Notes under the pieces: model-generated
Databases searched by the model: none
Seen by the model: the letters and a program-made list of their open reading frames with translations, nothing else
Told to the model about the DNA's origin: nothing
In this document: positions 892-51,600 of the stretch, piece after piece
Layout of the letters: the number at the start of each line of letters is the position of its first letter
Numbering within the stretch: position 1 is the first letter of the stretch
DNA from: Azolla caroliniana
Taxonomy: Eukaryota; Plantae; Polypodiophyta
Assembly: GCA_043228905.1 (NCBI GenBank)
Contig: JBHGNT010000005.1
Location: 13,206,001-13,270,000 of the forward strand
Direction of reading: 5' to 3'
Length of the DNA: 64,000 nucleotides
Translations under genes and position numbers: made by a program

Positions 892-1348
892 TGTCAGGAA
901 CTCTATTAAGGCAGAGAAGGAATTAGTACTAAAAGAAGGATTAGTACTATTGTTGGGGAATAGTACTAAGACAGAGAAGGATTAGTACTATGAGAGGTGT
1001 CGAACTTTGAGAGAAGGAATGAGTGAGTGAGAGAGAGAGAGAGAGAGAGAGAGAATGATGATGCGAAAGATATATGTATTATATGACGGAAGATATACAA
1101 CAGTAGTTAGAAGGCTTAAGACTGGCGTTGAACCGATTTGGTTCGAACTAATGCCTTGCGCCTCCTTTTATAGTGTCTTCAGGAATACTCCTGAAGTTTC
1201 TAGAATGTTCCAGAGAAATCTGGAATATACATCAATTTCCTAATAAAACCTAAATCAAAATAATATCCTTCAAATTACAACTCATAACCTAATGGTAAAG
1301 TCTCGACCCGTGTAACAAAAGGTTATGGGTTCGAGTCTAGTTATGACA
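892..1348 (-). repeat. 3' LTR of element B
   Basis: Direct repeat of 4785-5241; adjacent to the PPT (minus strand ttttaaagggggggtag). Confidence 0.97.
1280..1348 (+). promoter_or_regulatory. tRNA-like A-box/B-box module at the U3 edge of chromovirus LTRs (also ~5173-5241, ~12630-12700, ~20185-20240)
   Basis: TAACCTAATGG (1285) and GGTTCGAGTC (1328); in B2, TAGTCTAATGG and GGTTCGA. Confidence 0.5.
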
Positions 1349-5241: not shown

Positions 5242-5246
5242 GGTGG

Positions 5247-9255: not shown

Positions 9256-9326
9256 AGACGGGCCGGTTTTCTCCGTCCCAACTCTCTTGGCGAATACCGG
9301 AGGATGCGCGGTTAGGTGGGGGCGGA

Positions 9327-11524: not shown

Positions 11525-14500
11525 CTATATATAGATTTCCTCTTCTAACTCACGATGCAGAAATGTTGTTTTTACATCCAATTGTTCAATCCCCAGATTC
11601 ATACATGCAGTTATGCTCAAAATAGTTTGGATGGATGTCCACTTTACTACTGGAGCAAATATCTCATCAAAATCGACACCCTTTTCCTGCTGAAAGCCCT
11701 TTACCACTATTCGGGCTTTATATCTAGGTGTACTACCAACTTCTCTAGTTTTCAACTTTGTAAAACCATTTGTTTCTGAGTGCATTCTCTCCCTTAGGTA
11801 GCTCCATCAACTCATAGGTGTGGTTCTCATCCAAGGAATCCATCTCATCTTGCATGGCACTATACCACTTCTCCTTGTACACATCTGCCATGGCTTTTTG
11901 ATAACATTCCGGCTCACCTTCATCAGTCAGTAGGACATATTGACTAGCTGGATACAGAGAGGATGGTTTCCATGGTTATCTTCTTCCTTCTACCGCCAAT
12001 TCAAGTTTAGTTGCTTCTGCCAGCTCATTATCTACCTCAGATTCATGTGCATCAGCCTCCTGTTGTGTGCCGACCAGCTCAGATATGTTGTTTGTGGGAT
12101 GACTATGTAGGAGTGGGGTCGGCTAGTGTCAAATCCATAACTGTCGCCGGCTGGGAAGAAGACGCTGATTTCTATTGTCTCTAGTCTTCAATCGTCTTGT
12201 CTTCCATGAATACAATATCATGGCTCACCACTTTCTTTTCAAGAAGATCCACAACTTATTGTTAGGAACAGTACTAAGACAGAGAAGTACTGTCAAGAAT
12301 AGTACTAAGACAAAGACAGAATTAGTACTAAAAAATGAGGATTAGTACTAAGGGAGGTGTAGAACTCTCGAGAGAAGGAAAGAGTGAGTGAGAGAGAGAG
12401 AGAGAATGATGATAACAAAAGATATCTATTATGTTAAGAGAATATACAATAGTCGCTAAAAGGCTTAAGACTGGCGTTGAACCGATTTGGTTCGAATTAA
12501 TGCCTTGTGCCTCCTTTTATAGTGGTCTCAGGAGTACTCCTGAACTTTCTAGAATGTTCCAAAGAAATTTGGAATATACATCCAATTTCTATAGTAAAAC
12601 TTAAATGAAAATAATATCCTTCGTATTACAACATATAGTCTAATGGTCAAGAGCTCGACCCATGTAACATAAGGTCATGGGTTTGAGTTTTGCCATATCA
12701 CGAGACTATCCCCCTTTTAAAATGACGAGTGTCACGAGCCGTTTTGGATTGAGGACCCGGTTTGTCTTGATATTGACTGTGAAAGTCTTCAAGATGAGCA
12801 CAAGCATTGGCCACATTCTCTATTGGTTCCCAAGTACGCTCGTTGGGACTATATCCTAGCCAATCGACTAAATAGTAGAGCTTGTTGCGAACAATCTTGG
12901 AATCGAGGATGGGGGCAACCTCGTACTAAGGTCCATCTTCAAGTTCGATCGAGGGTGGAGGTTGTTTAATACGACCTGGGATGATGCTGTCTTTATAAGG
13001 TTCGAGGAGAGAACTATGAAACACCGGACCTATCTGAAGTTGTGGAGGTAGATCGAGACGAAAAGTGACATCATTAATTTTTCCGATAATACGGAAAGGA
13101 CCTAATCACCGATAATCCAACTTCTCGCATGAGCGAGTAGTTTTGATGTGTCATCGTGGTAGCCATACCCGATCTCCAATGTTAAAACTGGATGGAAGAC
13201 GATGACGATCCACGCAAACCTTGTGTGTTTGTTGAGCTTGTTGTAGATGAGTAGATAAATCCCCTTGTATCTTGCATAACCACTCTAAACTATCCTCTCT
13301 AAAAGGATTTGTGGGTAACTCTGGGGTTTCAAATACACACCACCGGGGGTGATAGCCCGTATAAGCATAAAATGGTGTAACCTTTGTCGATGAGTGGACA
13401 GAGTTATTATATGAAAATTCGGCGAAGTGGAGAATATCGACCCAGTCATCTTGATGATAGCTTAGAAAGCACCGAAGATACTGCTCCAGCGTTTGATTTG
13501 TTTGTTCTGTTTGGCTGTCTGTTTGCGGGTGGTAGCTAGAGGAGAGGTTACAAGTGACCTTGAGCATTTTAAAGAGGTGCTTCCGGAATTTCGAGACGAA
13601 TTGGGGTCCACGGTTGCTAATGATACTATCGGGAAGGCCATGATGCCGACATACTTCACGCATGACAGTTTCGGTAGTTTCCTCACTAGAGATTTCCTTA
13701 GTACATGGCAGGAAATGGGCCATCTTTGTATATCGATCTACTACTATTAAGATCGCATCGAATCCCTTAGAGACCGGAAGATTTGTGATGAAATCTAGAG
13801 CAATGGATTGCCACGGCTTGATTGGAATTGGTAATGGTTCTAATAAAACATATGGATGATGCCTTGGCATTTTTGCTCTGCAACATGTATCACAAGTTCG
13901 AACAAAATCTTCGACAAATTGTCCCATATGGGGCCACCATAATGAATGTTGTACTAAATCTAATATTTTAGTACTACCAAAATGCCCAGATGTATATGTG
14001 TCATGACAGTTTTGGATTACTCTAAGGTGACAAGAACCATTAGGAACATACAAGATTTTCTTAAAGAATAGTAATCCATCATGACATTTGAATTGTCGAT
14101 AGTCCGTACCTGGTTGTTGCGACTGTGAACAAGATGCTCGAAAGGGATCAATTTGTGCTAGAATGGCTTGGGCGAAAGCATCTATCTTCAAGTCCTCACG
14201 TATGGTATCGGTAACGTGGGAATCCAAGGGCATACCGAAGACCTGCGTTGCTTGGAGTCATGTTGGTCCCATGATTACTTGCCTTTGGTTATCAAAAGTT
14301 GGCTCGCCAGGACGCGGTGCTAGATACGAACATCGTGATAATGCATCAGCCTTCCCTTGTTGCTTCCCCGGACGATATGTAATTTTGAAGTCAAAACGAG
14401 TGAGGAATTGGGCCCACCGAGCTTGACGTCGATTTAACACACGAGCATTCTGAAAGTAGGCAAGGTTTTTGTGATCACTGAATACGGCGACTTGATGAGA

Positions 14501-18644: not shown

Positions 18645-20064
18645 AACACGTTTGTGTTCACAAGTGGAAGGATAAGGATAAGGAATATTCCGTCTGATTT
18701 TGGGGCTTTTTTGGCCATTTCACAAAACACCTTGATACCAATATCACATGTTCTCAAAAACTTGATGAAAAAGCTAAAATTTTCACCGTTTGGACATGAA
18801 AAGTTCGTGTCGAAAAGTTGACTTTTTGACATGAATTCAATACAATGTATCGAGTTCACGTTTAAAGTTTTTTTGGGGATTTTTTTTAAAAAAAATTTGG
18901 TTTTTTTTCTATTTATTTTGGGTCTTTTTGGATTTTTTCTTTTTTTAAGTTTTAAGTGGTGAAAAAACCAGAGTTTTCATCACAAGTCGATACAATGTAT
19001 CGAATTCATGTTTAAAGTTATTTTTTTCCCAAAAAACAATTTTAAAAACAAATAAATAAATAAATAACAATTTGAAAAAATTACTTTAAACATGAACTAG
19101 ATACATTGTACTGAATTGTGATGAAAAATCTAGTTTTATTCAATTTTTATTTTTTTTGTTTTATTTTATATATTTTTTATTTTTTTAAATTCGGGAAAAA
19201 AAGACTTCGAACATGAATTTGATACGTTGTATGGAATTGATATGAAGACTCTATTTTTTACATCAACTCGATACAATGTATGGAGTTCATGTTTAGAAAT
19301 CTTCTTTTTTTTCAAATAAAAGAGGTTTACAGTTTACATGAACTCGAATTGTACTAAAATCTTTGTTTTGACAAGAGTAAAAGATGAATATCGATGTTGT
19401 AAAGAAGTATGTTGCACAACAAGATACCTTATGGTGAACATGTGCTTCCTTGATTAACAAAAAACCATTAATAATTGTGTTGATGGTAATTGAACCTTGC
19501 AAATGCAGAAGAAGAGGAGAGCATTGTGGATACCTTCATAACTATGTGATATGTTCAAATTGATATATTAATGTTTACATCTAAAATTGACAGTTTATGA
19601 ATATCATCTACATTTTAGGAGTTATGGATTTATTAAAATTGTTTATGAATATTGTATACATTTCTTGAGTTGTGAATTTATGCATGTTAATGAGCACTAA
19701 ATTTATAGATGATGGCATTAAGGATTACAATGTTCCCTCTTATACTTAAAACAATAGATGTAACTTCCACTTTTGGAACCTACATCTTCTCAAGATAGTT
19801 AACTTCCATTGGGATTTTCTTTAAGTTAACTACATTTCATATCTTCAACCCATCAACGTTTAAACATTTATTGAAAACTATGCAATTTTAGAAATTATCA
19901 TTTTGAAACTTGTTAAATCTCCAAAAATTAGCAAAATTTACATGCTATTTAAAACATGTGATACTGGTGTATCAAGTTTCTGAAAATCGCCTAAATTCGC
20001 AATATTATAAAAGGAATCTATAAGTGGAATGCGTGATCCTTCCACTTGTGAACGCGAACGTGAT
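18645..20064. mobile_element. Non-autonomous DNA transposon (MITE-like, 1420 bp)
   Basis: ~29-bp imperfect TIRs (aacacgtttgtgttcacaagtggaaggat / atccttccacttgtgaacgcgaacgtgat), CTCC duplicated on both sides, AT-rich non-coding interior; interrupts the B2 LTR. Confidence 0.85.
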
Positions 20065-22389
20065 CTCCTTTTATAGTGTTCCCAAGAGTACTCCTTAAGT
20101 TTCTAGAATGTTCCAAAGAAATCTGGAATATACATCAATTTTCTATAGTAAAATTTAAATGAAAATAATATTTTTCGTATTACAACATATAGTCTAATGG
20201 TCAAGAGCTCGACCCATGTAACATAAGGTTATGGGTTCGACCGAACTCATCTCTTGAGTACCCCAAGAATATGCATGGCTTGGACTTCATGTCCAGCTTT
20301 GACCTTTGATCATTTGCAACATGCATATATGTCGAGCATTCGAACACTCTCAAGTGCTAGTAAGAGAAGCACTCTCAAGTGCTAGTAAGAGAAGTTTCTT
20401 CTTGTCCACACCCTCTGTGGAACATCACCATTTAGAGACACTAAGGGGAACCCGTTTATAAGATAAACAACCATCAACATTGCCACAACCCAATACAATT
20501 TCGGCAATTTTGCAAGTGACAACATGCTTCATACCCTTTCCATTATGGTTCAGTTCATCCTCTCTGCTAGACCATTCAATTCATGTGTCTTCAGCACTGT
20601 GTAGTCAAGTTTGATACCTTGAGTCTTACAATACATCTCAAACTGGATCTTGTACTCACTACCGTTATCTGTCTGAACAGCCTTCAACTTTTGTCCAGAT
20701 TCTTTTTTAGCCCTAGCATGGAATTGTTTAAAGTCTGACATCACCTGGTCTTTAGTCTTCAATACGAAAGCCCAGAACTTTCTGTTATAGCCATCAATGA
20801 ATGCCACAAAGTATTGTCCACCACGATGTGACATTGCATCCACATAACATACATATGCGTGAACCAATTCTAAAGCAAGCTCTCTTCTCATTGGAGGTCT
20901 AGAATGGAACGTGACCCTATTTTCTTACCAACCAAGCAATCAACACATTTGTCCAGATCCATACCTTTCACTCCTGGGAGGAGATCCTTTCCAGCAAGCA
21001 TATTGTTGAGAGACAAGCTCAACATCGGCCGGTTCGGCTGAAGAAGTCGAGGACCGGATCGGTTGGGACCGATCGGTTAGGCCGAGTGCGTAAACCGGGA
21101 GCGCGTGTCAGCCGCGACGTTGTGTTTGACGAGTCCGCGTCCTGGTACCTGCCCCCGACTACGAACCTCGACTCCCATCCGAGCTCTGACGATGAGGTCA
21201 GCGAGGCCGAGATGCCTCTGGATGAGCCCGAAATCGATACCCACGAGGAGAGTCTGATTTCACTCCAGTTAAGTGGACCGATTGGACGACTGAGTCGGTA
21301 CGACCAGTCCGATGAAGAGCCAGCGAGTGGTGGAGACTCGTCCGTGCATTCCCCGCGCAGGAAGCCGAGGAGACGGCTTACGCGCAAAGAGAAAGGGAAG
21401 AAGAAGGTGTCGGATTTCGGCACGGAAAGGAACGAGTCAGACCGACGCGAGTCCAACTCCGAGGGAACCGGTGACAGGTCTTTAAAGATGAAGACCGCGT
21501 CGACCGAGAACGCCTCGACATCGGCTAATGTGAGATTACGCCGATCTACTCGCCAAAAGAACCCAGTTGTGTGGTTCGGATACAACGAGTACATGGCGCA
21601 TCATTATGCGTACATGACCCGTGTAACGGAAGTGCGTGAGTCGGAGAGCTACGCAGAAGCGGCTAAAGACGCGAATTGGCATGCCGCGATGGAGGAAGAG
21701 ATGCACGCATTGGCAGAGAACGAGACCTGGGACCTAGTTGACACACCAAGAGGGGTAAAACCGATCGGGTGTAGGTGGGTGTACAAGGTCAAGTACAACA
21801 CCGATGGCTCGGTCAACCGGTACAAGGCTCGGCTAGTGGCAAAGGGCTACGCGCAGAAACACGGCATCGACTACGATGAGACGTTTGCGCTGGTCGCGAA
21901 AATGACGACCGTCCGTGTTTTGCTCGTAGTAGCTGCGGTGAAGGGGTGGCACTTACATCAGATGGATGTAAAGAATGTGTTCCTGCAAGGTGACCTTGAG
22001 GAACAGATGTACATGGTACAGCCCCCCGGATTTCACTCTGGAAGGAACTCCTCGGCAGTATGCCGACTGAAGAAGTCCCTTTACGGACTGAAGCAAGCCC
22101 CGCATGCCTGGAACGCGAAGATCACGCAACAACTGCGTCGGATGGGCTTCGTCACGTCAAAATCAAACTCTTCCCTGTTCATCCGGAAAGGTCGACTCGG
22201 ACCGGTTAGTATTTTACTATATGTTGATGACTTGGTCATCACCGGCGCCAACCTACGTGAAATCGACCGTGTGAAGCTCCAACTTGCGGCATCGTTCGAC
22301 ATGAAGGACCTGGGGGACCTTCATTACTTCCTCAGGATCGAAGTGATCCGTACCCCCGAAGGCATATTGATCAGCCAACATCATTACGT

Positions 22390-25300
22390 TGTCGTAGTGT
22401 ATTTTGTACACTACGTGAAAAACGTATATAGTATTAGATTCAATAAAAAATGAAGAAATAGAAGAAAATAGCAAAATAAATGGAACATGCATAGGGCAAG
22501 ATTCGAACCTTGCACCTCCATGTTAATAATGTAATGTCTTACCATTACACTAGCATTTCATTAGTGTTAAAGCATAGATGTCCCACATAGAAAGGTAAAT
22601 TCACGCTAGGATAAACATTAGAAAAACGCATAACAAAAGAAAAAGCTACACATACACATCTAGCGTGCATGATAAAAAACGCACAAGTTAGAAAAAAGCA
22701 TGATCACTTTAGATAAAGCATATAGTCTATCTATAGGAAAAGCATGGGGTCTATAGTTAGAGAAAAAGCATGGATTACTAAGACTTCCTCATCACTACAT
22801 AAGGATGGGAAGCACAATGTAATTGTGTGTGAAAAATATTTGGAAACTAGATATGTTTCTAAAAAACACCAGTTAATAAACTATACTTGTGGGATTCACG
22901 AGAATTCTATATCATTCTCTTTCAACCGAAGTTTATATTCTTATATTCATATTGATTAATCTAATACAATACACTCGTGGGATTCACGAGTTTGCTATAA
23001 CTCTTTCTTACAACATATTTCTATTCTTATTAGCCTTAAAACTCTCCTCTTCCTAGTCCAAAACCCCAGCGGTTCCCACCCGACTCACGAAACGATCTGG
23101 CGCCGAAAGGCACGACACAAGTTGGTGAACCCGACGTGAAGACGGGCTGGAAGGAGACCGACTCAATCGAAACCGAACAACCGATTCCGATTCGGCCGAA
23201 TACGAATCCGATCGGAAGCCGATCAAACCGAAAGTCGATCGGACGAGAGCGATCCGGAAAAAAGTCAAGGTTGATGAAGACAAGAAAGAGGCCAGTAAAA
23301 GACACTACCACGAATGACAAGGGCCAAGAATATGACGAGAGAGAACAAAGAATATGGTGGATCGGATGGCGACAATGGTTCGGGTGGAAAGAATGGGTCT
23401 ATTCAAATGGAGAGACAAAGTCAACATAACAAGAGAAGTCGAGGGTACTACGAGCCGGCAACGAAACCAATCGGGTAGAGACCGGACGGAGGAGACTAAC
23501 AAACACCAACAACTTCGGCACATACCGGAGGATGTGCGGGTTTGGAGGGGGTGAGTGTCGTAGTGTATTTTGTACACTACGTGAAAAACGTATATAGTAT
23601 TAGATTAAATAAAAAATGAAGAAATAGAAGAAAATAGAAAAATAAATGGAACATGCATAGGGCAAGATTCGAACCTTGCACCTCCATGTTAATAATGTAA
23701 TGTCTTACCATTACACTAGCATTTCATTAGTGTTAAAGCATAGATGTCCCACATAGAAAGGTAAATTCACGCTAGGATAAACATTAGAAAAACGCATAAC
23801 AAAAGAAAAAGCTACACATACACATCTAGCGTGCATGATAAAAAACGCACAAGTTAGAAAAAAGCATGATCACTTTAGATAAAGCATATAGTCTATCTAT
23901 AGGAAAAGCATGGGGTCTATAGTTAGAGAAAAAGCATGGATTACTAAGACTTCCTCATCACTATATAAGGATGGGAAGCACAATGTAATTGTGTGTGAAA
24001 AATATTTGGAAACTAGATATGTTTCTAAAAAACACCAATTAATAAACTATACTCGTGGGATTCACGAGAATTCTATATCATTCTCTTTCAACCGAAGTTT
24101 ATATTCTTATATTCATATTGATTAATCTAATACAATACACTCGTGGGATTCACGAGTTTGCTATAACTCTTTCTTACAACATATTTCTATTCTTATTAGC
24201 CTTAAAACTCTCCTCTTCCTAGTCCAAAACCCCAGCGGTTCCCACCCGACTCACGAAACGATCTGGCGCCGAAAGGCACGACACAAGTTGGTGAACCCGA
24301 CGTGAAGACGGGCTGGAAGGAGACCGACTCAATCGAAACCGAACAACCGATTCCGATTCGGCCGAATACGAATCCGATCGGAAGCCGATCAAACCGAAAG
24401 TCGATCGGACGAGAGCGATCCGGAAAAAAGTCAAGGTTGATGAAGACAAGAAAGAGGCCAGTAAAAGACACTACCACGAATGACAAGGGCCAAGAATATG
24501 ACGAGAGAGAACAAAGAATATGGTGGATCGGATGGCGACAATGGTTCGGGTGGAAAGAATGGGTCTATTCAAATGGAGAGACAAAGTCAACATAACAAGA
24601 GAAGTCGAGGGTACTACGAGCCGGCAACGAAACCAATCGGGTAGAGACCGGACGGAGGAGACTAACAAACACCAACAACTTCGGCACATACCGGAGGATG
24701 TGCGGGTTTGGAGGGGGTGAGTGTCGTAGTGTATTTTGTACACTACGTGAAAAACGTATATAGTATTAGATTAAATAAAAAATGAAGAAATAGAAGAAAA
24801 TAGAAAAATAAATGGAACATGCATAGGGCAAGATTCGAACCTTGCACCTCCATGTTAATAATGTAATGTCTTACCATTACACTAGCATTTCATTAGTGTT
24901 AAAGCATAGATGTCCCACATAGAAAGGTAAATTCACGCTAGGATAAACATTAGAAAAACGCATAACAAAAGAAAAAGCTACACATACACATCTAGCGTGC
25001 ATGATAAAAAACGCACAAGTTAGAAAAAAGCATGATCACTTTAGATAAAGCATATAGTCTATCTATAGGAAAAGCATGGGGTCTATAGTTAGAGAAAAAG
25101 CATGGATTACTAAGACTTCCTCATCACTATATAAGGATGGGAAGCACAATGTAATTGTGTGTGAAAAATATTTGGAAACTAGATATGTTTCTAAAAAACA
25201 CCAATTAATAAACTATACTCGTGGGATTCACGAGAATTCTATATCATTCTCTTTCAACCGAAGTTTATATTCTTATATTCATATTGATTAATCTAATACA

Positions 25301-27781
25301 ATACACTCGTGGGATTCACGAGTTTGCTATAACTCTTTCTTACAACATATTTCTATTCTTATTAGCCTTAAAACTCTCCTCTTCCTAGTCCAAAACCCCA
25401 GCGGTTCCCACCCGACTCACGAAACGATCTGGCGCCGAAAGGCACGACACAAGTTGGTGAACCCGACGTGAAGACGGGCTGGAAGGAGACCGACTCAATC
25501 GAAACCGAACAACCGATTCCGATTCGGCCGAATACGAATCCGATCGGAAGCCGATCAAACCGAAAGTCGATCGGACGAGAGCGATCCGGAAAAAAGTCAA
25601 GGTTGATGAAGACAAGAAAGAGGCCAGTAAAAGACACTACCACGAATGACAAGGGCCAAGAATATGACGAGAGAGAACAAAGAATATGGTGGATCGGATG
25701 GCGACAATGGTTCGGGTGGAAAGAATGGGTCTATTCAAATGGAGAGACAAAGTCAACATAACAAGAGAAGTCGAGGGTACTACGAGCCGGCAACGAAACC
25801 AATCGGGTAGAGACCGGACGGAGGAGACTAACAAACACCAACAACTTCGGCACATACCGGAGGATGTGCGGGTTTGGAGGGGGTGAGTGTCGTAGTGTAT
25901 TTTGTACACTACGTGAAAAACGTATATAGTATTAGATTAAATAAAAAATGAAGAAATAGAAGAAAATAGCAAAATAAATGGAACATGCATAGGGCAAGAT
26001 TCGAACCTTGCACCTCCATGTTAATAATGTAATGTCTTACCATTACACTAGCATTTCATTAGTGTTAAAGCATAGATGTCCCACATAGAAAGGTAAATTC
26101 ACGCTAGGATAAACATTAGAAAAACGCATAACAAAAGAAAAAGCTACACATACACATCTAGCGTGCATGATAAAAAACGCACAAGTTAGAAAAAAGCATG
26201 ATCACTTTAGATAAAGCATATAGTCTATCTATAGGAAAAGCATGGGGTCTATAGTTAGAGAAAAAGCATGGATTACTAAGACTTCCTCATCACTATATAA
26301 GGATGGGAAGCACAATGTAATTGTGTGTGAAAAATATTTGGAAACTAGATATGTTTCTAAAAAACACCAATTAATAAACTATACTCGTGGGATTCACGAG
26401 AATTCTATATCATTCTCTTTCAACCGAAGTTTATATTCTTATATTCATATTGATTAATCTAATACAATACACTCGTGGGATTCACGAGTTTGCTATAACT
26501 CTTTCTTACAACATATTTCTATTCTTATTAGCCTTAAAACTCTCCTCTTCCTAGTCCAAAACCCCAGCGGTTCCCACCCGACTCACGAAACGATCTGGCG
26601 CCGAAAGGCACGACACAAGTTGGTGAACCCGACGTGAAGACGGGCTGGAAGGAGACCGACTCAATCGAAACCGAACAACCGATTCCGATTCGGCCGAATA
26701 CGAATCCGATCGGAAGCCGATCAAACCGAAAGTCGATCGGACGAGAGCGATCCGGAAAAAAGTCAAGGTTGATGAAGACAAGAAAGAGGCCAGTAAAAGA
26801 CACTACCACGAATGACAAGGGCCAAGAATATGACGAGAGAGAACAAAGAATATGGTGGATCGGATGGCGACAATGGTTCGGGTGGAAAGAATGGGTCTAT
26901 TCAAATGGAGAGACAAAGTCAACATAACAAGAGAAGTCGAGGGTACTACGAGCCGGCAACGAAACCAATCGGGTAGAGACCGGACGGAGGAGACTAACAA
27001 ACACCAACAACTTCGGCACATACCGGAGGATGTGCGGGTTTGGAGGGGGTGAGTGTCGTAGTGTATTTTGTACACTACGTGAAAAACGTATATAGTATTA
27101 GATTAAATAAAAAATGAAGAAATAGAAGAAAATAGCAAAATAAATGGAACATGCATAGGGCAAGATTCGAACCTTGCACCTCCATGTTAATAATGTAATG
27201 TCTTACCATTACACTAGCATTTCATTAGTGTTAAAGCATAGATGTCCCACATAGAAAGGTAAATTCACGCTAGGATAAACATTAGAAAAACGCATAACAA
27301 AAGAAAAAGCTACACATACACATCTAGCGTGCATGATAAAAAACGCACAAGTTAGAAAAAAGCATGATCACTTTAGATAAAGCATATAGTCTATCTATAG
27401 GAAAAGCATGGGGTCTATAGTTAGAGAAAAAGCATGGATTACTAAGACTTCCTCATCACTACATAAGGATGGGAAGCACAATGTAATTGTGTGTGAAAAA
27501 TATTTGGAAACTAGATATGTTTCTAAAAAACACCAATTAATAAACTATACTCGTGGGATTCACGAGAATTCTATATCATTCTCTTTCAACCGAAGTTTAT
27601 ATTCTTATATTCATATTGATTAATCTAATACAATACACTCGTGGGATTCACGAGTTTGCTATAACTCTTTCTTACAACATATTTATATTCTTATTAGCCT
27701 TAAAACTCTCCTCTTCCTAGTCCAAAACCCCAGCGGTTCCCACCCGACTCAAGAAACGATCTGGCGCCGAAAGGCACGACA
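22390..27781 (+). mobile_element. Tandem array of a non-coding TRIM-like LTR element: 5 LTRs (728 bp; starting 22390, 23556, 24722, 25888, 27054) and 4 internal domains (438 bp), period 1166 bp
   Basis: TGTCG..CGACA termini; 4-bp TSD ACGT (22386-22389 / 27782-27785), whose removal restores the host HYVLSML; PBS TGGTGAACCCGACGTGAA after each of the first four LTRs; PPT ggagggggtgag before each following LTR. Confidence 0.95.
22473..22560 (-). promoter_or_regulatory. tRNA-like Pol III type-2 promoter module (A box, B box, T-run) in the TRIM LTR; repeated at +1166, +2332, +3498 and +4664
   Basis: Minus strand TAGTGTAATGG (22552-22542), then GGTTCGAATC (22509-22500) inside a GCAAG/CTTGC stem, then TTTT downstream. 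Confidence 0.6.
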
Positions 27782-29672
27782 ACGTGCTGAGTATGCTCTT
27801 CAAATTCGGGATGGCCGACTGTAAGTCCGTCTCGACTCCTCTGGACAGAACCGTCAAGCTTCGTCCCGATACGGGAAAGGTATGCGACCCGACGAGGTTC
27901 CGACCTCAGTTATCCGGTCCGGGTGATCAGTCAGTTCATGGCGCGACCTACCGAGGAGCACCTTCAGTGTGCGCAACGCATACTTCGGTATGTCAACGGC
28001 ACTAAGGACCGGCGACTGCTATATCGGACCGGTGCAGCCGCGCAGTTAGTCGGCTACACCGATGCTGATTGGGCTGGCAACGCCGCCGATCGTCGATCCA
28101 CGTCCGGATACGCATTCTCCCTCGGGAGTGCCACAATCGCGTGGAGCAGTAAGAAGCAGCCGACAGTTGCACTGTAGAGCACCGAAGCGGAGTACCGAGG
28201 AGCGGCTGTCGCGACATGCGAAGCCATATGGTTGAAGCGGCTACTTAAGGACCTGCAAGAGGAGGTGTCCGATCCGACGACGATCTACTGCGACAACCTC
28301 AGCAGCATCCAACTCGCGAAAAACCCTGTTTTCCACGCACGGACCAAGCACATTGAGGTGCACTACCATTTCGTCCGTGAGCGTGTCCTTTCCGGTGAAG
28401 TCAAACTTCAGTACGTTCCGACGGATCGGCAGGCTGCCGACATCTTCACCAAGCCTCTTGGTCTGGACAAGTTGCGGCAATTCTCAGGTGCGCTCGGATT
28501 ACGTCACCTTGACGTGCCGAACTTGAGGAGGAGAATAGTCCCGAATGACCAAGCAAGGCAGCAGGAAAGGAGCGGAGACCGTGACACCAAGTCGGTTGAC
28601 AAGTTCGACTTCGGATCGGCTAAAGAAGCCGAGGGCGGACCCGCGGAAAAGTTCGGAAGCAGACAGAAGGGGAGCAACCGAAGGAGAGAGCCGAAGCCAA
28701 CCACGCATGGGGAAGATGACGCCATCGAGGGCGAGAAGACCGAAGACGAGTTGGAGACAGCCAACTCGGACGAGAGCGAAAACCGATCGGAGGTAGCCAA
28801 GTTGGTTCGGATGTTTGATTCAGACACGTTGAATCAACCGAGGCCCAAGCGGAAGAAAAGGCAGCAGAAGAAGTGTCGACACCGCAACAGCAGAAGAGCT
28901 GGTAAGGGCCGCATGAGCAGACAAGCCGACCAGAAGGGTCGAAGCGCGCGGAGTCGAACAGGTCGAGGAGCGCGAGTGAGGCGTGAAGCCAGGAGGAACC
29001 GGAGTTGTGAGCCCGAGGATCCCGAAGAGCCTTGAGTTGAGCTTGAGGGGGAGTGTTGAGAGACAAGCTCAACATCGGCCGGTTCGGCTGAAGAAGCCAA
29101 GGACCGGATCGGTTGGGACCGATCGGTTAGGCCGAGTGTGTAAACCGGGAGGTCGTTAGGAAAGATATTCCGTGAGGAATATATTTGGGAGTTAGTGTAG
29201 GAGCTCTTGATGAGCATTGAAGTACTGTCAGTACTTCGGTCAGTCCTTCTAGGACTTGTATAAAAAGTGTTCACTGAGCACGTCTTATGTACAAACTGAG
29301 TATTATTGTTGAATATAGTTTTTTTGTGTCTTCTCTCTCACTCTCTCTGTCTCTCCCGCATATACCGTTTAAGCTCAAGCTCTCCATTGAACTTGAGTTT
29401 CCTTCCTTCTGTTCGGTCTTCATACTTGCTTCCGCACGTTACTTTCTACACATATGCATTCCCCTCTCACTCATGTGGCCAAGCCTTTTATGCCCTCAAT
29501 CTGACATCCGGGACATGGTGTATATCCTTCAATAATAATCTGCAACTAGTAGATGTTATCAAACATACATTTTCAATGCCAACTATTTTGCATTCACCAT
29601 CATTTACTATCTTTACATAACCATATATCACTTATTGTATAGGATGAGAAGCATTCTCTCTTGGGAGTTAGG

Positions 29673-30745: not shown

Positions 30746-30994
30746 CTAATCTTTCTTCCATCGCCCCCCCGCCCCCCGCCCCCCGCCCCCCACCCTCTTT
30801 CTCTCTCTCTCTTTCTGTGTGTTTTCCTCCCGTGGGGGCAATGGAAAGAGACAAGATCAAGAATATATACTGCTGCTCCTGTACTGGTCAGTACTAGTAT
30901 GTATGTATTGTGGTAGTACTGACCGCAAAGGTGTGCAGCAGTGAAGAAGGCCAGACTTCTAGAGACACAGAGGGAGAGGGAGAGGGGAGCAGTA

Positions 30995-33041: not shown

Positions 33042-33073
<32 letters not shown>

Positions 33074-42609: not shown

Positions 42610-45600
42610 TAGTGCATTGTTTTGGTACATTGACGTATGCTCGCTAGTCATCCCCATTCCTTCTGAGGACGAGCCGAATTTGTTCGACATCCTCAATGAG
42701 GAAGAAAGTGAGGATGACGTCGATGAGGAACCTGAAGAAGACAAGGAGTGAAGGATCGAGGGGTCGGTTCAGTCGTGCAAGGCATTGTCCCACGAGCGTG
42801 CCAAGTGTTAGTGGGTCGACTACCAGGCTCCGAGTCGGACAAATGTGAAAGGAAGTCAGAGTCGACAAGGTTTGGAGTGGAACAAGTATGAAAGTGCCGG
42901 AGTCGGATTGATGAGTCAGAAATGAATTAACATATATTTTGCCAAGTAGTAAAAATAGTAGAGTTAGTTTGGACAATTTTCTTGTAGTCTTGCCAAGCAC
43001 AAGTGCCAATCTTGAAGAGAGACCCTCAGATCATCTATAAGAAGAGGCAGAGAACATTGTGATCTTATCATTCTATTTTGAATTAATATAAGATTAGTAG
43101 TATATCTTTATCGATTGTGTTCTTACTATTCTGTAATGCTATCTGTGTCGAACTCTAGTTCTGCGTCTACTAATTAATTATATTAAGAATAATAGTCGAT
43201 CACGGTGTCGTGAAGAAAACCGTCCACAAGCGGAATCGGTGCACAGGAGCGTAGGAACCGGCTCTTCTCGAATGTTGTCCATGGAAGATCCTAGGCAGGT
43301 AGATTTAGTGGGTAGGAAGTTAAAGGGGGGGGAAACGGCTCCTTCCCTGCCTATAAAAAGAGGGAGACGCGAAAGAGGAGGGGATCGCGGAGAGTCGAGG
43401 ACGAAGTGCTGTCGGTTTGTGTGCGAAGGCTTCTCTCTCTCTCTCTGGTTCGCAAACTCCATAGCTTCCTTCTGTGCAGGTTTCGGGAGGCTCGCGCTGC
43501 TCTGAGGAATGCCCGAGTGCTTCCGGCAGCACCTCCAACCTACTCCTTCCTTTCCGTGCATTTACGAATAGGTATCGGCATCTGTTCGCCAGCCTGTTCG
43601 GTTGTAACCGTCTTCGTGTTTTGTTGTTAGTCTTTGTTAATACATACATACATTCGTGTCTCTCTGTGTCGTTGCCCCACTCACTTCTTGTGTCGAAGGG
43701 CCGTGTCCCTGTGAATCTACTCTCGCACGTAGTGGGTCTCTTCTCCTTTCTCTCTTGCTCTTTACAGGACCCCCGAGGTCCCGCCTCATTCCACGCATCC
43801 GCGAGGAATACCTCGACATCTTTGGTGAACCCGACGTGAAAGAGGCGGCAGAAGAGCAGAAGATGAAAGGGTCGGATCTTGCAGAGGCCATGGCTTCGGC
43901 CGTGGATCGGATATTGAGTGCACGCGAGGGCACCGACGCCCTCGACAGAGCCATTGAGGCGGTCGTCGGTACGATCAGCCGGTTCAGCGGAAAGGATGCC
44001 ACGAAGTATCTGGCGTCCTACGGGGCAGAAATGTTGATGCGGGATATTCCGGAAGAGAGGCGTCTTGCCGGGTTTCCTCGAGTGGCGATGCCGAGCATCC
44101 ATGCGGAGGTGCTCAAGGTGCGGGCGGAGAGCCGTACCTGGGAGGAGTTCGAAGGCCGAATCCTAGAAAAATACGGGCTGGACGACGTGCTCCGGCTTTC
44201 GAAGCGGGACTTCATGGAATGGGTGGAGTCCCCCGGCAAGGGAAGAAATGCGTCGGCACTCCTCCGGGAGTTCGAAGAACGCTTTGCGCGCCTTTCGGCG
44301 CTTGACCGAACCGTTCTGGATACGAGCCGGGTCCTACTGTTCGTCAAATCGGTGGACGAGCGGGACAGGGATCAAGTCGGCTCCTTGCTGGAAACCGAAG
44401 ACGGGCTGACAACCGACTGGGCTGCGGGTAAGAGAGTTTGTGGCCGTTTCGACAAACGGCGAGAATGGGTTGACAACGGGGCGGCCGGTGCGGGCTCTGT
44501 CACAGCAAGGAGGCTTGAACCGGCGCCGCAAGTGCGAAGGGAAGAAACCCGGGAATGGCTCAAAACCGGTCCGGCTTCGACCGGCATGGTCAATGGCTCG
44601 TCCGGAGGAGCGGCGCTGGAGGAGTTGACGCGGGCGATAAAGGATCTCCAGATCGCCCACACTCGAAGGGAAGGCGGCGAACCGGCTTGTGACGGACGGC
44701 CGGCAGTGGGGAACAGGTGCATGTGGTGCGACGAGGTCGGCCACATTCGGAAGGACTGCGGCGATTTCGCAGAGGCGTTGAGAAATCGGGTGGTGTACCT
44801 GTGGGAAGGCCAGGTGCACGCTGGCGACACCAGGAGGGCCCTGAGCCGAAACGACGGGTGAGGAGGTATGAAGAGACTGATGGAAGACGCAGTGGCCCGA
44901 CACGTGGAGGCCATCCACTACTCGGCGTCGGCCGGTATTCGGGTCGGGGGCAGCGAGGCCCAAAAGGAGAGCAAAGACGGTTTCTGGTCTGCAATGCTGG
45001 AAGGCCTCGCCGGCGCACGGCTGAGGAAAGATGAAACGGACCGCGCTGAGAGACGGGTCCGGGAAATAACCGGGTGGAGCGATCCGGTCGAGGAGAAGAC
45101 CGGCTTCGTAGAAGTCGTCTACCGGAACTACGAGGCTCTGGTAGAAGAAAAACAAGTGGGGAAAGCCGGAGCGGCCGGGCCCTCGCAACGGTACGAGACC
45201 CGATTCGGGCAATGACGGAATGATGCCGGTGGGTCCGGCCCGCAAGATAACCCCAGGAAGGACGGGTACCGACTGGGGACAGAAATAGAAAGGACTACGG
45301 ACCTACGAAAGGTCCTAGAAGAACGGATCCTCGACAGCAAAGTGGAGCTGTCATTGCGGGAGGTGCTAGGGATCGCCAAGAAGGAGTTCCACGACTCCAT
45401 TGTAGACTTGGTGAAACGGAAGAGACTTTCGACGGAGACGGAATTGGAAAGACCGGTGGAGGTGCGGACGACGCACATCGACGACTCGGCGTTGGAAGAT
45501 GAGTGGGCGGAGAGCCACTATTCGAGGCCACACTGGGCCCGAGCGACCACGGAGACCCCGGTAAAGATCGGAGATGTTCAGGAACCGGTGGTGGCGTTGG

Positions 45601-48600
45601 TGGACCACGGTTCGGAAATAAACCTAATGTCCATGGACTTCTATAAGAAGGGAAAGTGGCCGATCAACACCAGGCACGGGTGGAAGATACGGGCGGTGAC
45701 GCGCGCCACCGAGGAACTGCACGGGGCCTGCCCGAATGTGCGAGTAAAGATCGGCAACGTCGAGATTGACCAGCACTTCTTCGTACAGGAGACGTCCTCG
45801 CATCCGGTCATATTAGGGGAACCATACATCACGGCGGCGCGAATGGAGACCAAGGTGCTGGACAACAGTTCAGCCTACGCGAGGGTCAAGAGCCAGGACG
45901 GGCGCCATTCGGTCCAATTTCTGACGGTGCGACCAAACCACGAACGGAACCGCGAATCCCTCGGTGGCGAGAACCGGGAGGATTTTTAGAGAGGGTTGCC
46001 AAGGCGTGGGGCCGAGACAGTCCGGACACTCGGGAAAGACCCCACAACTGTATGATAGAACCGAAACCGAAGAAACCTTGTACGATAGGTGGAAAATTTT
46101 GCTTCTCCAACGACGGAGGGTGTATGATGGTCGGCATCGTTGGCCGAGAAAAGGCAAGGGCGGGGCAAGGGCGGAGGAGCGACTTCGAGCGTGCGGAGTC
46201 CTCGGCCCGGACGAGGAAATCAGCGGAGCCGTGGAGGCGGTCTCCTTCGACGACACCTTGGGGATGCTGAGGAAGGTAGCCGGAGAAGACCTTAACGAAG
46301 ACCGGACGATACCGGTATGTTCCGAAGAGATGTACGAAGTCATCGCGAACTTCAGTCGGGGGCTTGGGTCGGATCGGACGGCCCGAGTTAGCACAAAGTA
46401 CAAGATTGTGGACCGGAAGGTAAGGCCAGTCGCGGCACCCTTGCCGGAGGGCAGCGAGTCCCGAATCAGAGAGGTGGCGTCGGACCCCAGTTTACGAGAT
46501 CCGGCCGGCATAGGACACACCTTCACCGACGGGACGCTCCGGGAGCTCAAAATCGGTGGGGGCGGGTTCCTACTGCCGGCGGAGGAAGACCGGTTTTGGA
46601 GAATGCTCGGAAGGCACGGGAAAGCATTCGCATTCTCACCGGAAGAGATCGGGTGCGTAGACCCGATGGTGATATTCACGGTACCGCATGTGCCGTGGAA
46701 TCTCAAGCCGATTCCGATACCGAGAGCTCACATCCCGGAGTTGATGGAGCTACTGAGGCAGAAAGTCGATATGGGTATTCTCGAACCGTCGAGCGCGCCA
46801 TACTTGAACCGATGGTTTACCGTACCAAAGAAAAACGGAACATTGCGCTTCATTCAGGACCTGCAGCCGGTCAACAGAGTGACCATTCGGAACGCAGGAA
46901 TCGGACCGACCATAGACGAGTTCGCGGAAGCCTTCGCCGGAAGGTCGATTTACTCGGTCGGTTATCTGTACTCGGGGTACGACCAGTTCTAGCTAGCCGT
47001 GGAGAGCAGAGACATTACGACTATGCGAACTCCCTTCGGCCTAGTGCGAATGTGTACCCTGCCGCAAGGAGGGACCAACTCGGTGGCCCACATGGTGAAT
47101 GCAATGAACAAGGTACTGAGGGATTGCATCCCGAACATCACCATGCCGTTCCTAAACGACATCCCGATCAAAGGGTGCCCGGTAGAAGAGAGGGACGCAA
47201 CACTCGGACTGGACGGATGCCGGCGATTCGTGGCAACACACATCGACGACTGCGAGAAGGTGCTACGAAGGCTAGAGGACGCGAGGCTCACCTTCTCCGG
47301 GGAGAAATCGGCCTTCGGGCAATCGGAAATCCTGGTGGTCGGACACCTATGTGGACCATATGGCCGGAACTCGTCTCCGGCAAAGGTAGAAGCCATCTCC
47401 GCGATGAAGACCGACTGTAGCTCGGTTACGGAAGTTCGGAGGTTCCTGGGGGCGTGCGCATTCTACCACATATGGATCCCACATTACGCCCACGTTGCGG
47501 AGCCGCTATACGGGTTGCTGAAGAAAGGGCAAAAATTCGAGTGGCGAGACAAGCACACGCAGTCGGTCCGGAAGCTGAAGGAAGCTCTTACGGCAGCACC
47601 GGCGCTCCGGAAGGCTGTCTACGAGAAGGGTACCCCGGTATACATAACGGTGGATACGAGTCCGACCGGGATCGGATGGGTCGTCAACCAAGAAGACGGG
47701 GACGGCATTCGGTTCCCGATCCGATTCGGCGCGAAGGTCCTCAGTGAGCGACAGCGAGGGTACGCCCAGGTTAAACACGAACTCTGGGGTATCGTTTCGG
47801 CAGTAAAGGCCGACAAAGACTACCTGATCGGGACGGAAGTGATCGTCGAGACGGATTGCCTGCCAATCCTTGGCATGGTTTCCGGATGCGCGACACCAGA
47901 CCTGGCGATGCTCAGGTGGATAGCATACATCAAGTCCCTGGATCCAGAAATACGGCACATTTCCGGAAAGGACAACGCCATGGCCGACATGCTTTCAAGG
48001 GCGAGGTTTGATGACGAGGGCGGCATGGTTTCGGAGGACGAAGAAGTCGGCGTGGACTTCTTCGAGGCGGCGTACGTGACGACCGATGGGACGAGCACTC
48101 CGGCGCTTAATGGCTTCGACGAGAGCAAGTACGACGGCGAGTGGCTCCAGATCGGTAGGTTTCTGAGGACAATGACGCCAGATGCGTCATGGACGAAGGA
48201 CGAGGCCAATCGGGTCCGGAAGAAAGCTTACCGATTCTTTCTCCGGGACGGATACTTATGGAAGCACCCGAAGAAGAGGAACGGCGTCCCGCTCCGGGTG
48301 GTGGCGATGAAGGAAGAACAGGAAGAGCTTCTGACGGCCTACCACGACAGCCCTTGGGCTGGACACCGTGGAACGTGGGCCACGTTCGAGAAGATAAAGG
48401 GGAAGTACTGGTGGCCGGGACTATACCGGGACGTGCATCGGTTCGTGACAACTTGCGAGAGTTGTCAGATGCACTCCGTGGTCCGACACCGGGACGAGCT
48501 TCACCCTACGTACCCTCCGACCATCCACTTCAAATGGATGGTAGACCTGGTGACGATGCCAATGGGAGTAGGACAGATGCGGTATCTGGTCCTAGCTCGG

Positions 48601-51600
48601 GAAGATTTGACGAACCAGGTGGAAGGCCGGGCCCTTCAGAACAAAACGACTACAGCCATATGTCGGTTCCTGATTGAGGACGTGATATGCCGGTACGGGT
48701 GCGTCGGGAAGATTGTGGCTGATCGCGGGGAGTTGGACGCCGAAGAGGCCGAGGAGCTGTTCGACCGGCTAGGAGTCAAGCTCTCGCTTACCACTGCGTA
48801 CAATCTGGAGGCGAATTGAAAGGTGGAGCGCGGACACGGACCGATCGTCAAGGCGTTAGTTCGGGCATGCGGAGGTCAAGTCGGGAACTGGCCGCCGCTG
48901 CTGCCTTACGCGTTGTGGGCGGACCGAACTACGCACAGTTCGGTGACCGGATTCATGCCGGCAGAACTCATGTTTGGGCAGAAGCCGGTCATGCCGATGG
49001 AACGCACGATCTCCTCGTGGGCAACCCTGGACTGGAGGAACGAGATGAGCAGGGAGGAACTGCTGGCGGCGCGTATACGACAGCTCGAGCGAAGACCGGA
49101 GGACGTGGAGCAGGCTGTGGAAAAGCTTCGGAAAGCAAGGATGAGGAACAAAGCCCGGTTCGACCGAACGCACCAGCTCCGACCGAAGAAGATCGAGGAA
49201 GGCGACTGGGTGCTAGTCTACGACAACAGCCTTGACAACCAGCACCGAGCGACACGGAAGTTCGCAAGAAGGTGGTTCGGGCCTTACGTAGTACAAAGCG
49301 CCAACGACAACGGGACGTACCATCTGGCGGAACTCGATGGTACGAGAATGACGATACCGGTAGCGGGGAAGCGGATCAAAGCGTTCAAGAAGCGTCATGA
49401 CGATGAGCCGGATCCGGTCGACCTGGACCGCGACGACGAAGGATCCGAAACCGAGGCAGAACCGACGAGCGGGGAATGAAGGCTGGACCGGTTTTCTCCG
49501 TCCCAACTCAATCTGGCGCATGCCGGTGGATGCGCGGTTAGGTGGGGGCGGATGTCGTGAAGAAAACCGTCCACAAGTGGAATCGGTGCACAGGAGCGTA
49601 GGAATCGGCTCTTCTCGAATGTTGTCCATGGAAGATCCTAGGCAGGTAGATTTAGTGGGTAGGAAGTTAAAGGGGGGGGAAACGGCTCCTTCCCTGCCTA
49701 TAAAAAGAGGGAGACGCGAAAGAGGAGGGGATCGCGGAGAGTCGAGGACGAAGTGCTGTCGGTTTGTGTGCGAAGGCTTCTCTCTCTCTCTCTGGTTCGC
49801 AAACTCCATAGCTTCCTTTTGTGCAGGTTTCGGGAGGCTCGCGCTGCTCTGAGGAATGCCCGAGTGCTTCCGGCAGCACCTCCAACCTACTCCTTCCTTT
49901 CCGTGCATTTACGAACAGGTATCGGCATCTGTTCGCCGGCCTGTTCGGTTGTAACCGTCTTCGTGTTTTGTTGTTAGTCTTTGTTAATACATACATACAT
50001 TCGTGTCTCTCTGTGTCGCTGCCCCACTCGCTTCTTGTGTCGAAGGGCCGTGTCCCTGTGAATCTACTCTCGCACGTAGTGGGTCTCTTCTCCTTTCTCT
50101 CTTGCTCTTCGGTACAGGACCCCCGAGGTCCCGCCTCATTCCACGCATTCGCGAGGAATACCTCGACAACGGTTACTAGGTAAACAAAATAGGATTTTGT
50201 AGAACAAGTATGAGTATAGACTATTACTAACCATCCAATTTCCTACGACAATCATCTTGATAGAACGTTCGACCTATTGTTTTTGCCGGTTACAACAATC
50301 GATTGTCAGCAAATCAACACTAATCAAGGTCATCATTCACGACCAAGAGGTGTCGGGCCTCATAGTCGATGAGCAGAGTTCGATAATCAAGGTCATCATT
50401 CACGGCCAAGAGGTGTCGCGAAGCATTGTCGATGGAGGGTACGATGTGAATGTCATTAACAAAATTACTTGTGATCGGCTAGGCATCACCACCTAGGAAG
50501 CAAGTCCTTTTTTCCTACAAATGGCCGACAATAGCACGGTCCGACCACTCGGGCTGATCCGACAGCTTGATATTGTCATTCGAGGCCACACGTTTCATAT
50601 ATCAACGATCATACTCCATCTCGATGCACCAACATATCCTCTATTCTTGGGTTGACCATGGCTTAGAACTACCAATATGAAGCAGAATTGGTAGAAGAAT
50701 ATTATGACATTCTGGAAAGGCAAGACCAAGATTCGAGTGTCAACTTTGGAAAATTTCGGGACATCTCGACAATGTGTGTCGTTATATGCTGAACCGGTCA
50801 ATATGATGGAAGGGCTAGATGATGTAGAAGAACATTAGTATTTTGAAGACAATCCCAAGATCATTACATTATTCAAAATCAATGTTCTCAAGGTGCTCGC
50901 CCCATAGCTCGAGGGTGACGACAAGAAGGACAAGGTGCCAATCGACGATAAAACTCTGAAGGAGTTATGCTTGCAGCGAGAAGCAATGGAAAGGGAAATG
51001 CAAGTATCCCAAAAGAGTACATGCTTCAGCGTCAGAGAAATTGAATCTAGCCAACAATGACACAGAGCCGAAAAGAGTGTTTATAGCGAAGGAGATGCAG
51101 TCGGATGACAAGGCAAATGTGGTCGACCTACGATGACAATAAAAACATGTGTTTGCATGGTCATTCAAGGGTATGAAGGGCCTCGATCTGACATTCTGTT
51201 AGCACAAAGATGTGAAGCTAATCTAATAACATGGATACTGTCTAAATCCGAACTATGCAGTAAAGGTAAAGGAAGAAATCGACAAACTACTACTATGCCT
51301 AGAAAGATGTCGGCAAGGCCGGCTAAGTTTAAATCCGGCCAAATGCGCATTCGGAGTTACGAGTGGAGCTTTGCTCGGACATATTGTTAGTCGGGACGGA
51401 ATTGCCATCAACCCAAATAAGGTGAAAGCCATAATGGAGGCACCACCACCAACAAATGCTAAGGCTCTGAGCTAATTCCTGGGCCACATTAGATGGCACA
51501 GTCATATGATTCGGTATTTGTCCGATGTTGCGACACCTCGGCACATAACATTACATAAAACACCCTTTCAATGGTTGACATAAGAACAAGACACTTACGA

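What the first reader, a model, noticed from the sequence alone, without database searches (positions are those of the whole stretch)
22390..27781. Tandem TRIM-like element whose LTRs carry an antisense tRNA-like Pol III cassette (possible tRNA analogue of Cassandra)
Seen: each 728-bp LTR of this non-coding, tandemly arrayed element contains, on the minus strand ~100-170 nt from its 5' end, TAGTGTAATGG and, 43 nt on, GGTTCGAATC in a T-arm-like stem. Between them is a CAT-N7-ATG anticodon-like arm, and TTTT follows downstream. Known: A/B boxes at this spacing define tRNA-type Pol III promoters, and Cassandra TRIMs carry 5S-derived Pol III promoters in their LTRs and form tandem arrays. Inference: this is a TRIM family with a tRNA-derived module that may make short antisense Pol III RNAs or recruit TFIIIC as an insulator against silencing. 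I do not recognise it as a described family.
Basis: partly seen in the sequence, partly recalled or inferred. Interest (0 to 1): 0.85.

Follow-up and report, generated by a model that had tools for sequence, protein, structure and literature searches.

The report
Backward tRNA promoter in plant LTRs
A small non-coding plant retrotransposon carries, facing backwards in each terminal repeat, a worn tRNA-type promoter whose two boxes are kept while the sequence between them changes; it faces the wrong way to copy the element, occurs also in protein-coding relatives and in an unrelated retrotransposon, and likely serves as a binding site that helps keep the element's ordinary promoter open.

Summary
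In detail: five 728-bp LTRs, four identical 438-bp spacers, and minus-strand A/B boxes 43 nt apart in every LTR (2 of 20,000 shuffles). The anticodon-like arm is not real. The element belongs with the Phygy-type Gypsy lineage (4-bp NCGN duplication, primer site identical to a full-length Gypsy in this window). tRNA analogues of Cassandra are already published (Helenus/TRIMp3), but there the module is sense. Here it is antisense, about 240 nt upstream of a TATA box, so it cannot make the genomic RNA. It is the best-conserved part of the LTR in a relative (73/75 versus 399/525), and a diverged subfamily keeps the A box in register with a replaced spacer. It is not TRIM-specific: the same LTR heads a gag-like frame in L044, and an unrelated self-priming Gypsy here carries a similar antisense module at its LTR end. 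Against function: B-box C56 is often T, a related LTR lacks the module, and the second family's module is not specially conserved. Best guess: a TFIIIC/Pol III site in U3 (0.5), untested. The scan's earlier notes hold tRNA-like units in other retroelements but not this LTR.

The parts
22390..23117 (+). LTR1 (728 bp, TGTCGT...ACGACA)
23556..24283 (+). LTR2
24722..25449 (+). LTR3
25888..26615 (+). LTR4
27054..27781 (+). LTR5
23118..23555 (+). Internal domain 1 (438 bp, no Pfam hit); identical copies at 24284-24721, 25450-25887, 26616-27053
23123..23140 (+). Primer-binding site (also 24289, 25455, 26621); identical to that of the Gypsy at 43823. tRNA-Trp by recall and by the dominant Phygy type
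23544..23555 (+). Polypurine tract; the 30 nt around it match the Gypsy copy at 9294-9322 at 87%
22386..22389 (.). Left copy of 4-bp target-site duplication ACGT (NCGN)
27782..27785 (.). Right copy of target-site duplication ACGT
22496..22552 (-). tRNA-like module, tRNA positions 8-63 (repeated at 23662-23718, 24828-24884, 25994-26050, 27160-27216)
22542..22552 (-). A box
22500..22509 (-). B box in a GCAAG/CTTGC stem; C56 lies at 22505
22473..22476 (-). First TTTT after the B box (putative Pol III stop)
22796..22802 (+). TATA-box position, LTR nt 407: TATATAA in LTR2-4 (23962, 25128, 26294), TACATAA in LTR1 and LTR5
20915..22389 (+). Copia reverse-transcriptase frame (RVT_2) interrupted by the array; it resumes after 27785
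43206..50168 (+). Full-length Phygy-type Gypsy (613/616-bp LTRs, TSD ACGG, same PBS, stops in pol): example of the likely helper lineage; no A/B module in its LTR
1274..1346 (+). Similar A/B module (spacing 43), antisense at the 5' end of the LTR of an unrelated self-priming Gypsy on the minus strand; same at 5167-5239
12625..12699 (+). Same kind of module in a second subfamily of the self-priming Gypsy (spacing 44, C56 is T); third copy 20179-20253

Best explanation
This is a young tandem array of a non-autonomous Gypsy-type LTR element, likely mobilised by Phygy-type enzymes and likely transcribed from its TATA box, whose U3 region carries a backward-facing tRNA-derived A/B-box module that likely works as a TFIIIC/Pol III binding site keeping the LTR promoter open, not as the promoter of the genomic RNA. 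Shown: structure, PBS/PPT/TSD match to Phygy, antisense orientation, position about 240 nt upstream of the TATA box, conservation of the module, presence in a gag-bearing relative. Inferred: a tRNA or tRNA-SINE head entered the U3 of a coding ancestor backwards and was copied to both LTRs by reverse transcription; the short element inherited it when gag-pol was lost; the array grew after insertion by unequal recombination between LTR1 and LTR5. Untested: TFIIIC binding, an 85-95-nt antisense RNA ending at 22473-22476, any barrier effect.
For: Boxes at tRNA spacing, 2 of 20,000 shuffles; gap-poor fit to tRNA model positions 8-63. Against the L044 LTR the module is 73/75 identical versus 399/525 for the LTR interior (substitutions only 2/75 versus 105/488, Fisher p 1e-5; boundaries were chosen after seeing the alignment, but it is the top 75-nt window and only the first ~80 nt of the LTR come close). 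In contigs of runs X1 and X19 loose ends that leave the window sequence after 22520, 22523 and 22529 (16, 33, 7 and 8 contigs) return to the A box in exact register, with 5 of 17 spacer letters alike in the X1 loose end (read by eye): boxes kept, spacer replaced, which is what a DNA promoter needs and a folded tRNA does not allow. Stems are eroded and no acceptor exists. TATA position is kept in L044, L035 and L013/L028. A similar module sits upstream of the TATA box in a self-priming Gypsy that uses no tRNA primer, so the module need not concern priming. Phygy: 4-bp NCGN TSD in 100%, tRNA-Trp PBS in 81% of 186 elements (PMC6317226 supplement); here TSD ACGT and 5 of 5 independent right junctions in related loci begin ACG. 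Array history: LTR2-4 carry LTR5 alleles at 52/483/499 and LTR1 alleles at 632/699.
Against: B-box C56 (22505) reads T in 64 contigs of X1 (28% of summed depth), 51 of X19 (41%), 2 of X20 (21%) and in L044, while its CpG partner 22504, whose change would be harmless to a minus-strand B box, is not listed (under 8%) in any of 4 runs; strict selection for TFIIIC binding predicts the reverse. A related LTR (L035) with the same 3' half has another U3 without the module, and the full-length Gypsy here lacks it, so it is dispensable. In the self-priming family the module is no better conserved than its surroundings (44/53 versus 94/106). In L044 the spacer is conserved too (32/32), so at that distance the boxes do not stand out. 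The tRNA score is weak (13.4 bits, E=2). 0 of 10 distant chromovirus-like elements (31-46% identical RT region) have the module. Barrier activity of tRNA-type promoters is known to me from yeast and mammals (recalled; PMC8136502, abstract only, credits CTCF for B2 SINEs), not from plants.
Confidence: 0.5

Rival explanations
1. The module acts in the sense genomic RNA: being antisense to a tRNA and lying in the 3' U3, it would pair with the D and T loops of the primer tRNA like the 3' half of the bipartite Ty3 primer site, or form a hairpin needed for packaging or strand transfer.
For: The orientation is what this predicts; Ty3 has a 3' primer site at the far end of its RNA (PMC11381356, passages). 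The hairpin round the B box folds on both strands (z -4.1 and -3.3). Loose ends suggest one outer pair 22487/22521 changes on both sides (A-T to G-C) in the diverged subfamily (separate contigs, CpG-type change, weak). The C56/22504 asymmetry fits a constraint read on the plus strand.
Against: The module does not copy the primer's 3' end implied by the element's own PBS (2 of 18 letters in register, best 8 of 18), so only 6-8-nt loop matches remain. A self-priming Gypsy with no tRNA PBS has the same kind of module. The PBS is a full 18 nt and needs no second half.
Confidence: 0.2
2. It is a SINE or tRNA relic that lost Pol III function and is kept only because it overlaps an ordinary Pol II upstream element (a palindromic factor-binding site), or is simply carried along by a few successful master copies.
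For: Frequent C56T; absent from L035 and from the full-length Gypsy; not specially conserved in the self-priming family; Kojima notes that 'not a few' Repbase LTRs hold tRNA-like pieces.
Against: Both boxes and their spacing are kept across a subfamily whose spacer has been replaced; 2/75 versus 105/488 substitutions against L044.
Confidence: 0.22
3. It is a Helenus/Cassandra-type element in which Pol III makes the genomic RNA from the tRNA-derived promoter.
For: Non-coding, tandem, tRNA-like boxes in both LTRs; the plus strand has only 1 run of four T per unit against 4.8 expected (p 0.02).
Against: PBS and PPT fix the plus strand as sense, the boxes are on minus; the minus strand has 17 runs of four or more T per unit; no sense A box pairs with the quasi-palindromic B box; the single plus-strand T4 lies at LTR nt 13, before the module, so no terminal repeat would form; the Pol II-type Gypsy LTR here also has only one T4; a TATA box is present.
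Confidence: 0.05

Closest known systems
Helenus / TRIMp3 (Kojima 2024, PMC10886601; whole main text read, supplement searched by motif)
   Same: Non-autonomous LTR element with PBS, PPT and a tRNA-derived A/B-box sequence in both LTRs; boxes conserved, cloverleaf not; tandem arrays occur; Gypsy-dependent members make 4-bp TSDs; proposed origin by SINE insertion into an LTR.
   Different: Helenus modules are sense: sense B-box words 206 times versus 13 antisense in the supplement, and all 13 inspected are incidental. Helenus is 311-1263 bp with LTRs up to 323 bp; this is 1894 bp with 728-bp LTRs and a TATA box. Kojima expects Helenus LTRs not to be shared with coding partners; this LTR heads a gag-like frame in L044. 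The only plant Helenus (Selaginella, 120-bp LTR, 5-bp TSD, sense module) is unlike this one in structure.
Cassandra TRIMs (PMC7215508, passages; PMC10853983, passages)
   Same: Plant, non-coding, LTR-internal-LTR tandem arrays, small-RNA-derived Pol III promoter motif in the LTR.
   Different: 5S-derived; transcription starts in the 5S part of the 5' LTR and yields the element RNA. Here tRNA-derived, antisense, unable to yield the element RNA.
Phygy non-chromovirus Ty3/gypsy (Neumann 2019, PMC6317226; passages and supplement table)
   Same: 4-bp NCGN TSD, PBS type, LTR ends TGTCG...CGACA and PPT shared with the full-length element at 43206-50168, whose pol has its closest named relatives in Riccia and Adiantum.
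   Different: No coding capacity; LTR interior unrelated to the window's full-length Gypsy. No Phygy-dependent short element or U3 tRNA module turned up in my searches.
Ty3 bipartite primer-binding site (PMC11381356, passages)
   Same: tRNA-complementary sequence near the 3' end of the genomic RNA.
   Different: The Ty3 site matches its primer over 23-24 nt; this module does not match the primer end implied by its own PBS.

Membership tests
Helenus / TRIMp3 | Two LTRs with PBS and PPT, no coding capacity | tested here: met
Helenus / TRIMp3 | tRNA-derived sequence with conserved A and B boxes inside the LTR | tested here: met
   A box reads TAGT..TGG, fitting the TRGCY/YGG only in part
Helenus / TRIMp3 | Module placed to transcribe the element (sense orientation) | tested here: not met
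   minus strand against plus-strand PBS/PPT; Helenus consensus words 206 sense versus 13 antisense, all 13 incidental (70-letter line breaks may hide some words)
Helenus / TRIMp3 | Short (311-1263 bp, LTR up to 323 bp) | tested here: not met
   1894 bp, LTR 728 bp
Helenus / TRIMp3 | Pol III transcription from the module | not testable with these tools
   only contigs available; also unvalidated for Helenus itself
Cassandra | 5S rRNA-derived domain in the LTR | tested here: not met
   no 5S match in Rfam at gathering or E up to 10
Cassandra | LTR-internal-LTR tandem arrays | tested here: met
   5 LTRs, 4 internal domains, one TSD; common in many non-autonomous families
TRIM (size definition) | Under 1 kb, or under 1.5 kb in the wider definition | tested here: not met
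   1894 bp; limits
Phygy-dependent non-autonomous element | 4-bp NCGN TSD | tested here: met
   ACGT; 5 of 5 independent right junctions ACGN; definition
Phygy-dependent non-autonomous element | PBS of the Phygy type (tRNA-Trp) | tested here: inconclusive
   identical to the PBS of the NCGN-flanked Gypsy at 43823; the name tRNA-Trp is recalled, no tRNA sequence was aligned
Phygy-dependent non-autonomous element | Partner's RT falls in the Phygy clade | not tested
   no tree against reference Phygy sequences; homologues in liverwort and fern only
Functional tRNA gene | Cloverleaf with acceptor and anticodon stems | tested here: not met

The most novel reading that the evidence does not exclude
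Unrelated Gypsy lineages in a non-seed land plant have each taken a tRNA-type promoter into U3, pointing away from the element, and use TFIIIC/Pol III as a built-in barrier against silencing of their Pol II promoter: a second use of captured small-RNA genes by LTR elements, distinct from Cassandra and Helenus, and present in coding elements too.
Probability: 0.25. Interest if true: 0.75.

Novelty: new variant of a known kind. Interest (0 to 1): 0.5.

Why it matters
If the module binds TFIIIC, it shows that plant LTR elements can carry a tRNA-type promoter for a purpose other than copying themselves, and gives a small, high-copy, natural test case (intact versus C56T copies, LTRs with and without the module) for whether tRNA-type promoters act as chromatin barriers in plants. 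It also adds a Phygy-dependent short element and widens the Helenus picture. If not, it is a tidy example of a SINE or tRNA relic fixed in an LTR.

Tried and rejected
No whole genome is held, so copies could not be counted. ARAGORN and Rfam at gathering: 0 hits in the window; Rfam at E up to 10 over the 1171-nt unit gave two chance hits, over the self-priming LTR end none. No RNA holder listed among the runs. Two runs guessed to be RNA have 6 and 1 contigs on the module (X20, X23); contigs show no strand or start, so nothing is drawn from them. Summed contig depth peaks on the module in all four runs (X1 365k versus 34k and 56k in the flanking bins; X19 20k versus 242 and 63); the tool warns that depth cannot rank parts of a stretch and AT-rich flanks may align worse, so this is not counted as evidence. 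Metagenome scan with the LTR-end motif: 57 loci, 8 plant-like family members, 49 dropped as chance matches without further similarity; of the 8, only L044 and L035 hold a whole LTR, L013/L028 are one locus whose U3 is deleted, the rest are cut short. Genome-contig scan: 28 loci, 0 related beyond the motif. Viral contigs: 0 for the module, 0 Phygy-type loci, 10 distant chromovirus-like elements with 0 modules. The host species was not determined (Atlas did not hold the zinc-finger protein). Literature: 9 searches found no description of an antisense tRNA-type module in the U3 of plant LTR elements; Repbase and SINEBase could not be searched, the library lacks most subscription papers, and bioRxiv supplements are closed. 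Rejected: anticodon arm (pairing probability 0), copy of the primer tRNA, sense Pol III transcription, assembly artefact (LTR copies differ at diagnostic sites, one TSD, family present in runs of 5 coded organisms).
Full report
Observation. The stretch 22390-27781 is LTR-I-LTR-I-LTR-I-LTR-I-LTR with period 1166. The five 728-bp LTRs differ at 0-5 sites and the four 438-bp internal domains at none. One 4-bp duplication, ACGT, flanks the array, which interrupts a Copia reverse-transcriptase frame. Each LTR has on the minus strand an A box and, 43 nt on, a B box; such a pair arose in 2 of 20,000 shuffles. The Rfam tRNA model fits positions 8-63 at only 13.4 bits. Loops and the variable-region letters are tRNA-like; D and anticodon stems are eroded and no acceptor exists.

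What the element is. PBS (23123) and PPT (23544-23555) fix the plus strand as sense. Neumann et al. give Phygy, alone among plant lineages, an NCGN insertion preference, with 4-bp TSD in 100% and tRNA-Trp PBS in 81% of 186 elements (PMC6317226, passages and supplement). The array has an NCGN TSD, and so do 5 of 5 independent right junctions among related loci. A full-length Gypsy at 43206-50168 has TSD ACGG, the same 19 PBS letters, the same LTR ends and a similar PPT; its pol has closest named relatives in Riccia and Adiantum, pointing to a non-seed land plant. Its LTR interior is unrelated and has no A/B module. I infer that enzymes of this lineage move the short element. The inner LTRs carry LTR5 alleles up to nt 499 and LTR1 alleles from nt 632, as unequal crossing-over after insertion would give.

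Is the module a family feature? Yes. Contigs of runs from five coded organisms hold it in LTR context. A metagenome contig, L044, has the whole LTR at 78% identity; the module is 73/75 identical against 399/525 for the LTR interior, the best 75-nt window of the LTR, with only the LTR's first ~80 nt close. In runs X1 and X19 a diverged subfamily leaves the window sequence just past the B-box arm and returns to the A box in exact register, the spacer being 5 of 17 alike (table 7, compared by eye). That is the pattern of a kept promoter and a lost tRNA fold.

It is not tied to the short element. In L044 the same LTR and PBS lead into a gag-like frame (tblastn E 1.5e-12 to the window's Gypsy gag; zinc knuckle further on), and loose ends at 23157 in three runs (26, 22, 13 contigs) begin with the same letters. 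L035 has the same 3' half of the LTR with another U3 and no module. The clan keeps a TATA box at LTR nt 407, about 240 nt downstream of the module. A relaxed scan then found a second case in the window: a Gypsy on the minus strand with no tRNA PBS and an 11-nt self-priming match (Tcn1-like by these features, not placed on a tree) carries an antisense A/B module, spacing 43-44, at the 5' end of its LTRs, in 4 of 4 LTR ends present (892-1348, 4785-5241, 12260-12700, 20065-20240). It matches the short element's module at 29 of 57 letters, mostly in the boxes, so common origin cannot be told from two captures. Between its two subfamilies this module is not better kept than its flanks (44/53 versus 94/106), and 0 of 10 distant relatives have it. 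The Copia and Phygy-type LTRs of the window have none.

How it likely works. Pol III cannot make the genomic RNA from it: it points the wrong way and the minus strand has 17 T-runs per unit. The element is likely transcribed by Pol II from the TATA box. The best-supported role for a backward A/B pair in U3 is as a TFIIIC/Pol III site, giving at most an 85-95-nt RNA that ends at 22473-22476, and helping keep the promoter open (0.5; untested). The main result against is the B-box C56 site, which reads T in 28%, 41% and 21% of contig depth in X1, X19 and X20 (64, 51, 2 contigs) and in L044, while the neighbouring CpG partner change stays under 8%. Founder lineages or strand-biased deamination during antisense transcription could explain this, but I did not show either. 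Rivals: a role in the sense RNA like the Ty3 3' primer site (PMC11381356, passages), weakened because the module does not match the primer end implied by the PBS and occurs in a self-priming family (0.2); a relic kept for another reason (0.22); Helenus-type transcription (0.05).

Comparison with what is known. Kojima 2024 (PMC10886601; whole main text, supplement searched by motif) described Helenus, TRIMs with tRNA-derived LTR modules, in fungi, animals and one plant, so 'tRNA analogue of Cassandra' is not new. Helenus modules are sense (206 sense B-box words, 13 antisense, all 13 incidental), and the elements are shorter. This element fails two Helenus features and is not filed as a member. 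Tandem arrays are common in such elements (PMC7215508 passages; bioRxiv 10.64898/2026.03.01.708851 passages). PMC10853983 (passages) and PMC2864245 (passages) mention no tRNA-like LTR module. Nine searches found no antisense U3 module in plant LTR elements; Repbase could not be checked, and Kojima remarks that tRNA-like pieces are not rare in Repbase LTRs. The scan's own notes hold no match to this LTR but do hold antisense tRNA-like units inside fungal Gypsy elements (unchecked).

Verdict. Real and conserved, a new variant of a known kind: an antisense, U3-located tRNA-type promoter module in a Phygy-type LTR clan and, in similar form, in an unrelated family. Function is inferred only. Interest 0.5.

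Noticed in passing
window 892-5241 (minus): Self-priming Gypsy derivative with 100% identical 457-bp LTRs and 5-bp TSD GGTGG, gag-PR-RT-RH but no integrase found; looks like a recently moved deletion form. Inserted in a second Phygy-type copy (1-891, 5242-10104).
   Followed up: partly
window 22505 versus 22504: Strand asymmetry at the B-box CpG: G>A common, C>T under 8% in four runs. Fits a plus-strand reading, a founder effect, or strand-biased deamination; unexplained.
   Followed up: partly
window 22393-22415: 10-bp hairpin at the very start of the LTR, inside the other highly conserved stretch (48/50 with L044); contains the only plus-strand run of four T.
   Followed up: no
window 22874-22926 and 22962-23014: Repeated GTGGGATTCAC motif in the 3' half of the LTR, 2 copies here, 3 in L044, kept in L013, L022, L035.
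   Followed up: no
L013:1-345 and L028: LTR 3' half joined at the TATA box directly to integrase-coding DNA 62-66% identical to the window's Phygy-type Gypsy, linking the LTR clan to pol-coding elements.
   Followed up: partly
L054:150-270: A decayed 5' end resembling the self-priming family's LTR inserted into an LTR of this clan.
   Followed up: no
window 30923-35122 (+): Single 1399-codon open frame with three C2H2 zinc fingers (PF13912), the only host-like gene seen.
   Followed up: partly
window 18960-19142: AT-rich palindromic element with 63-nt arms, MITE-like, inserted in the self-priming Gypsy region.
   Followed up: no
window 56630-57882, 61820-61941, 63288-63439: 54- and 28-bp tandem repeats inside nested Copia elements.
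   Followed up: no
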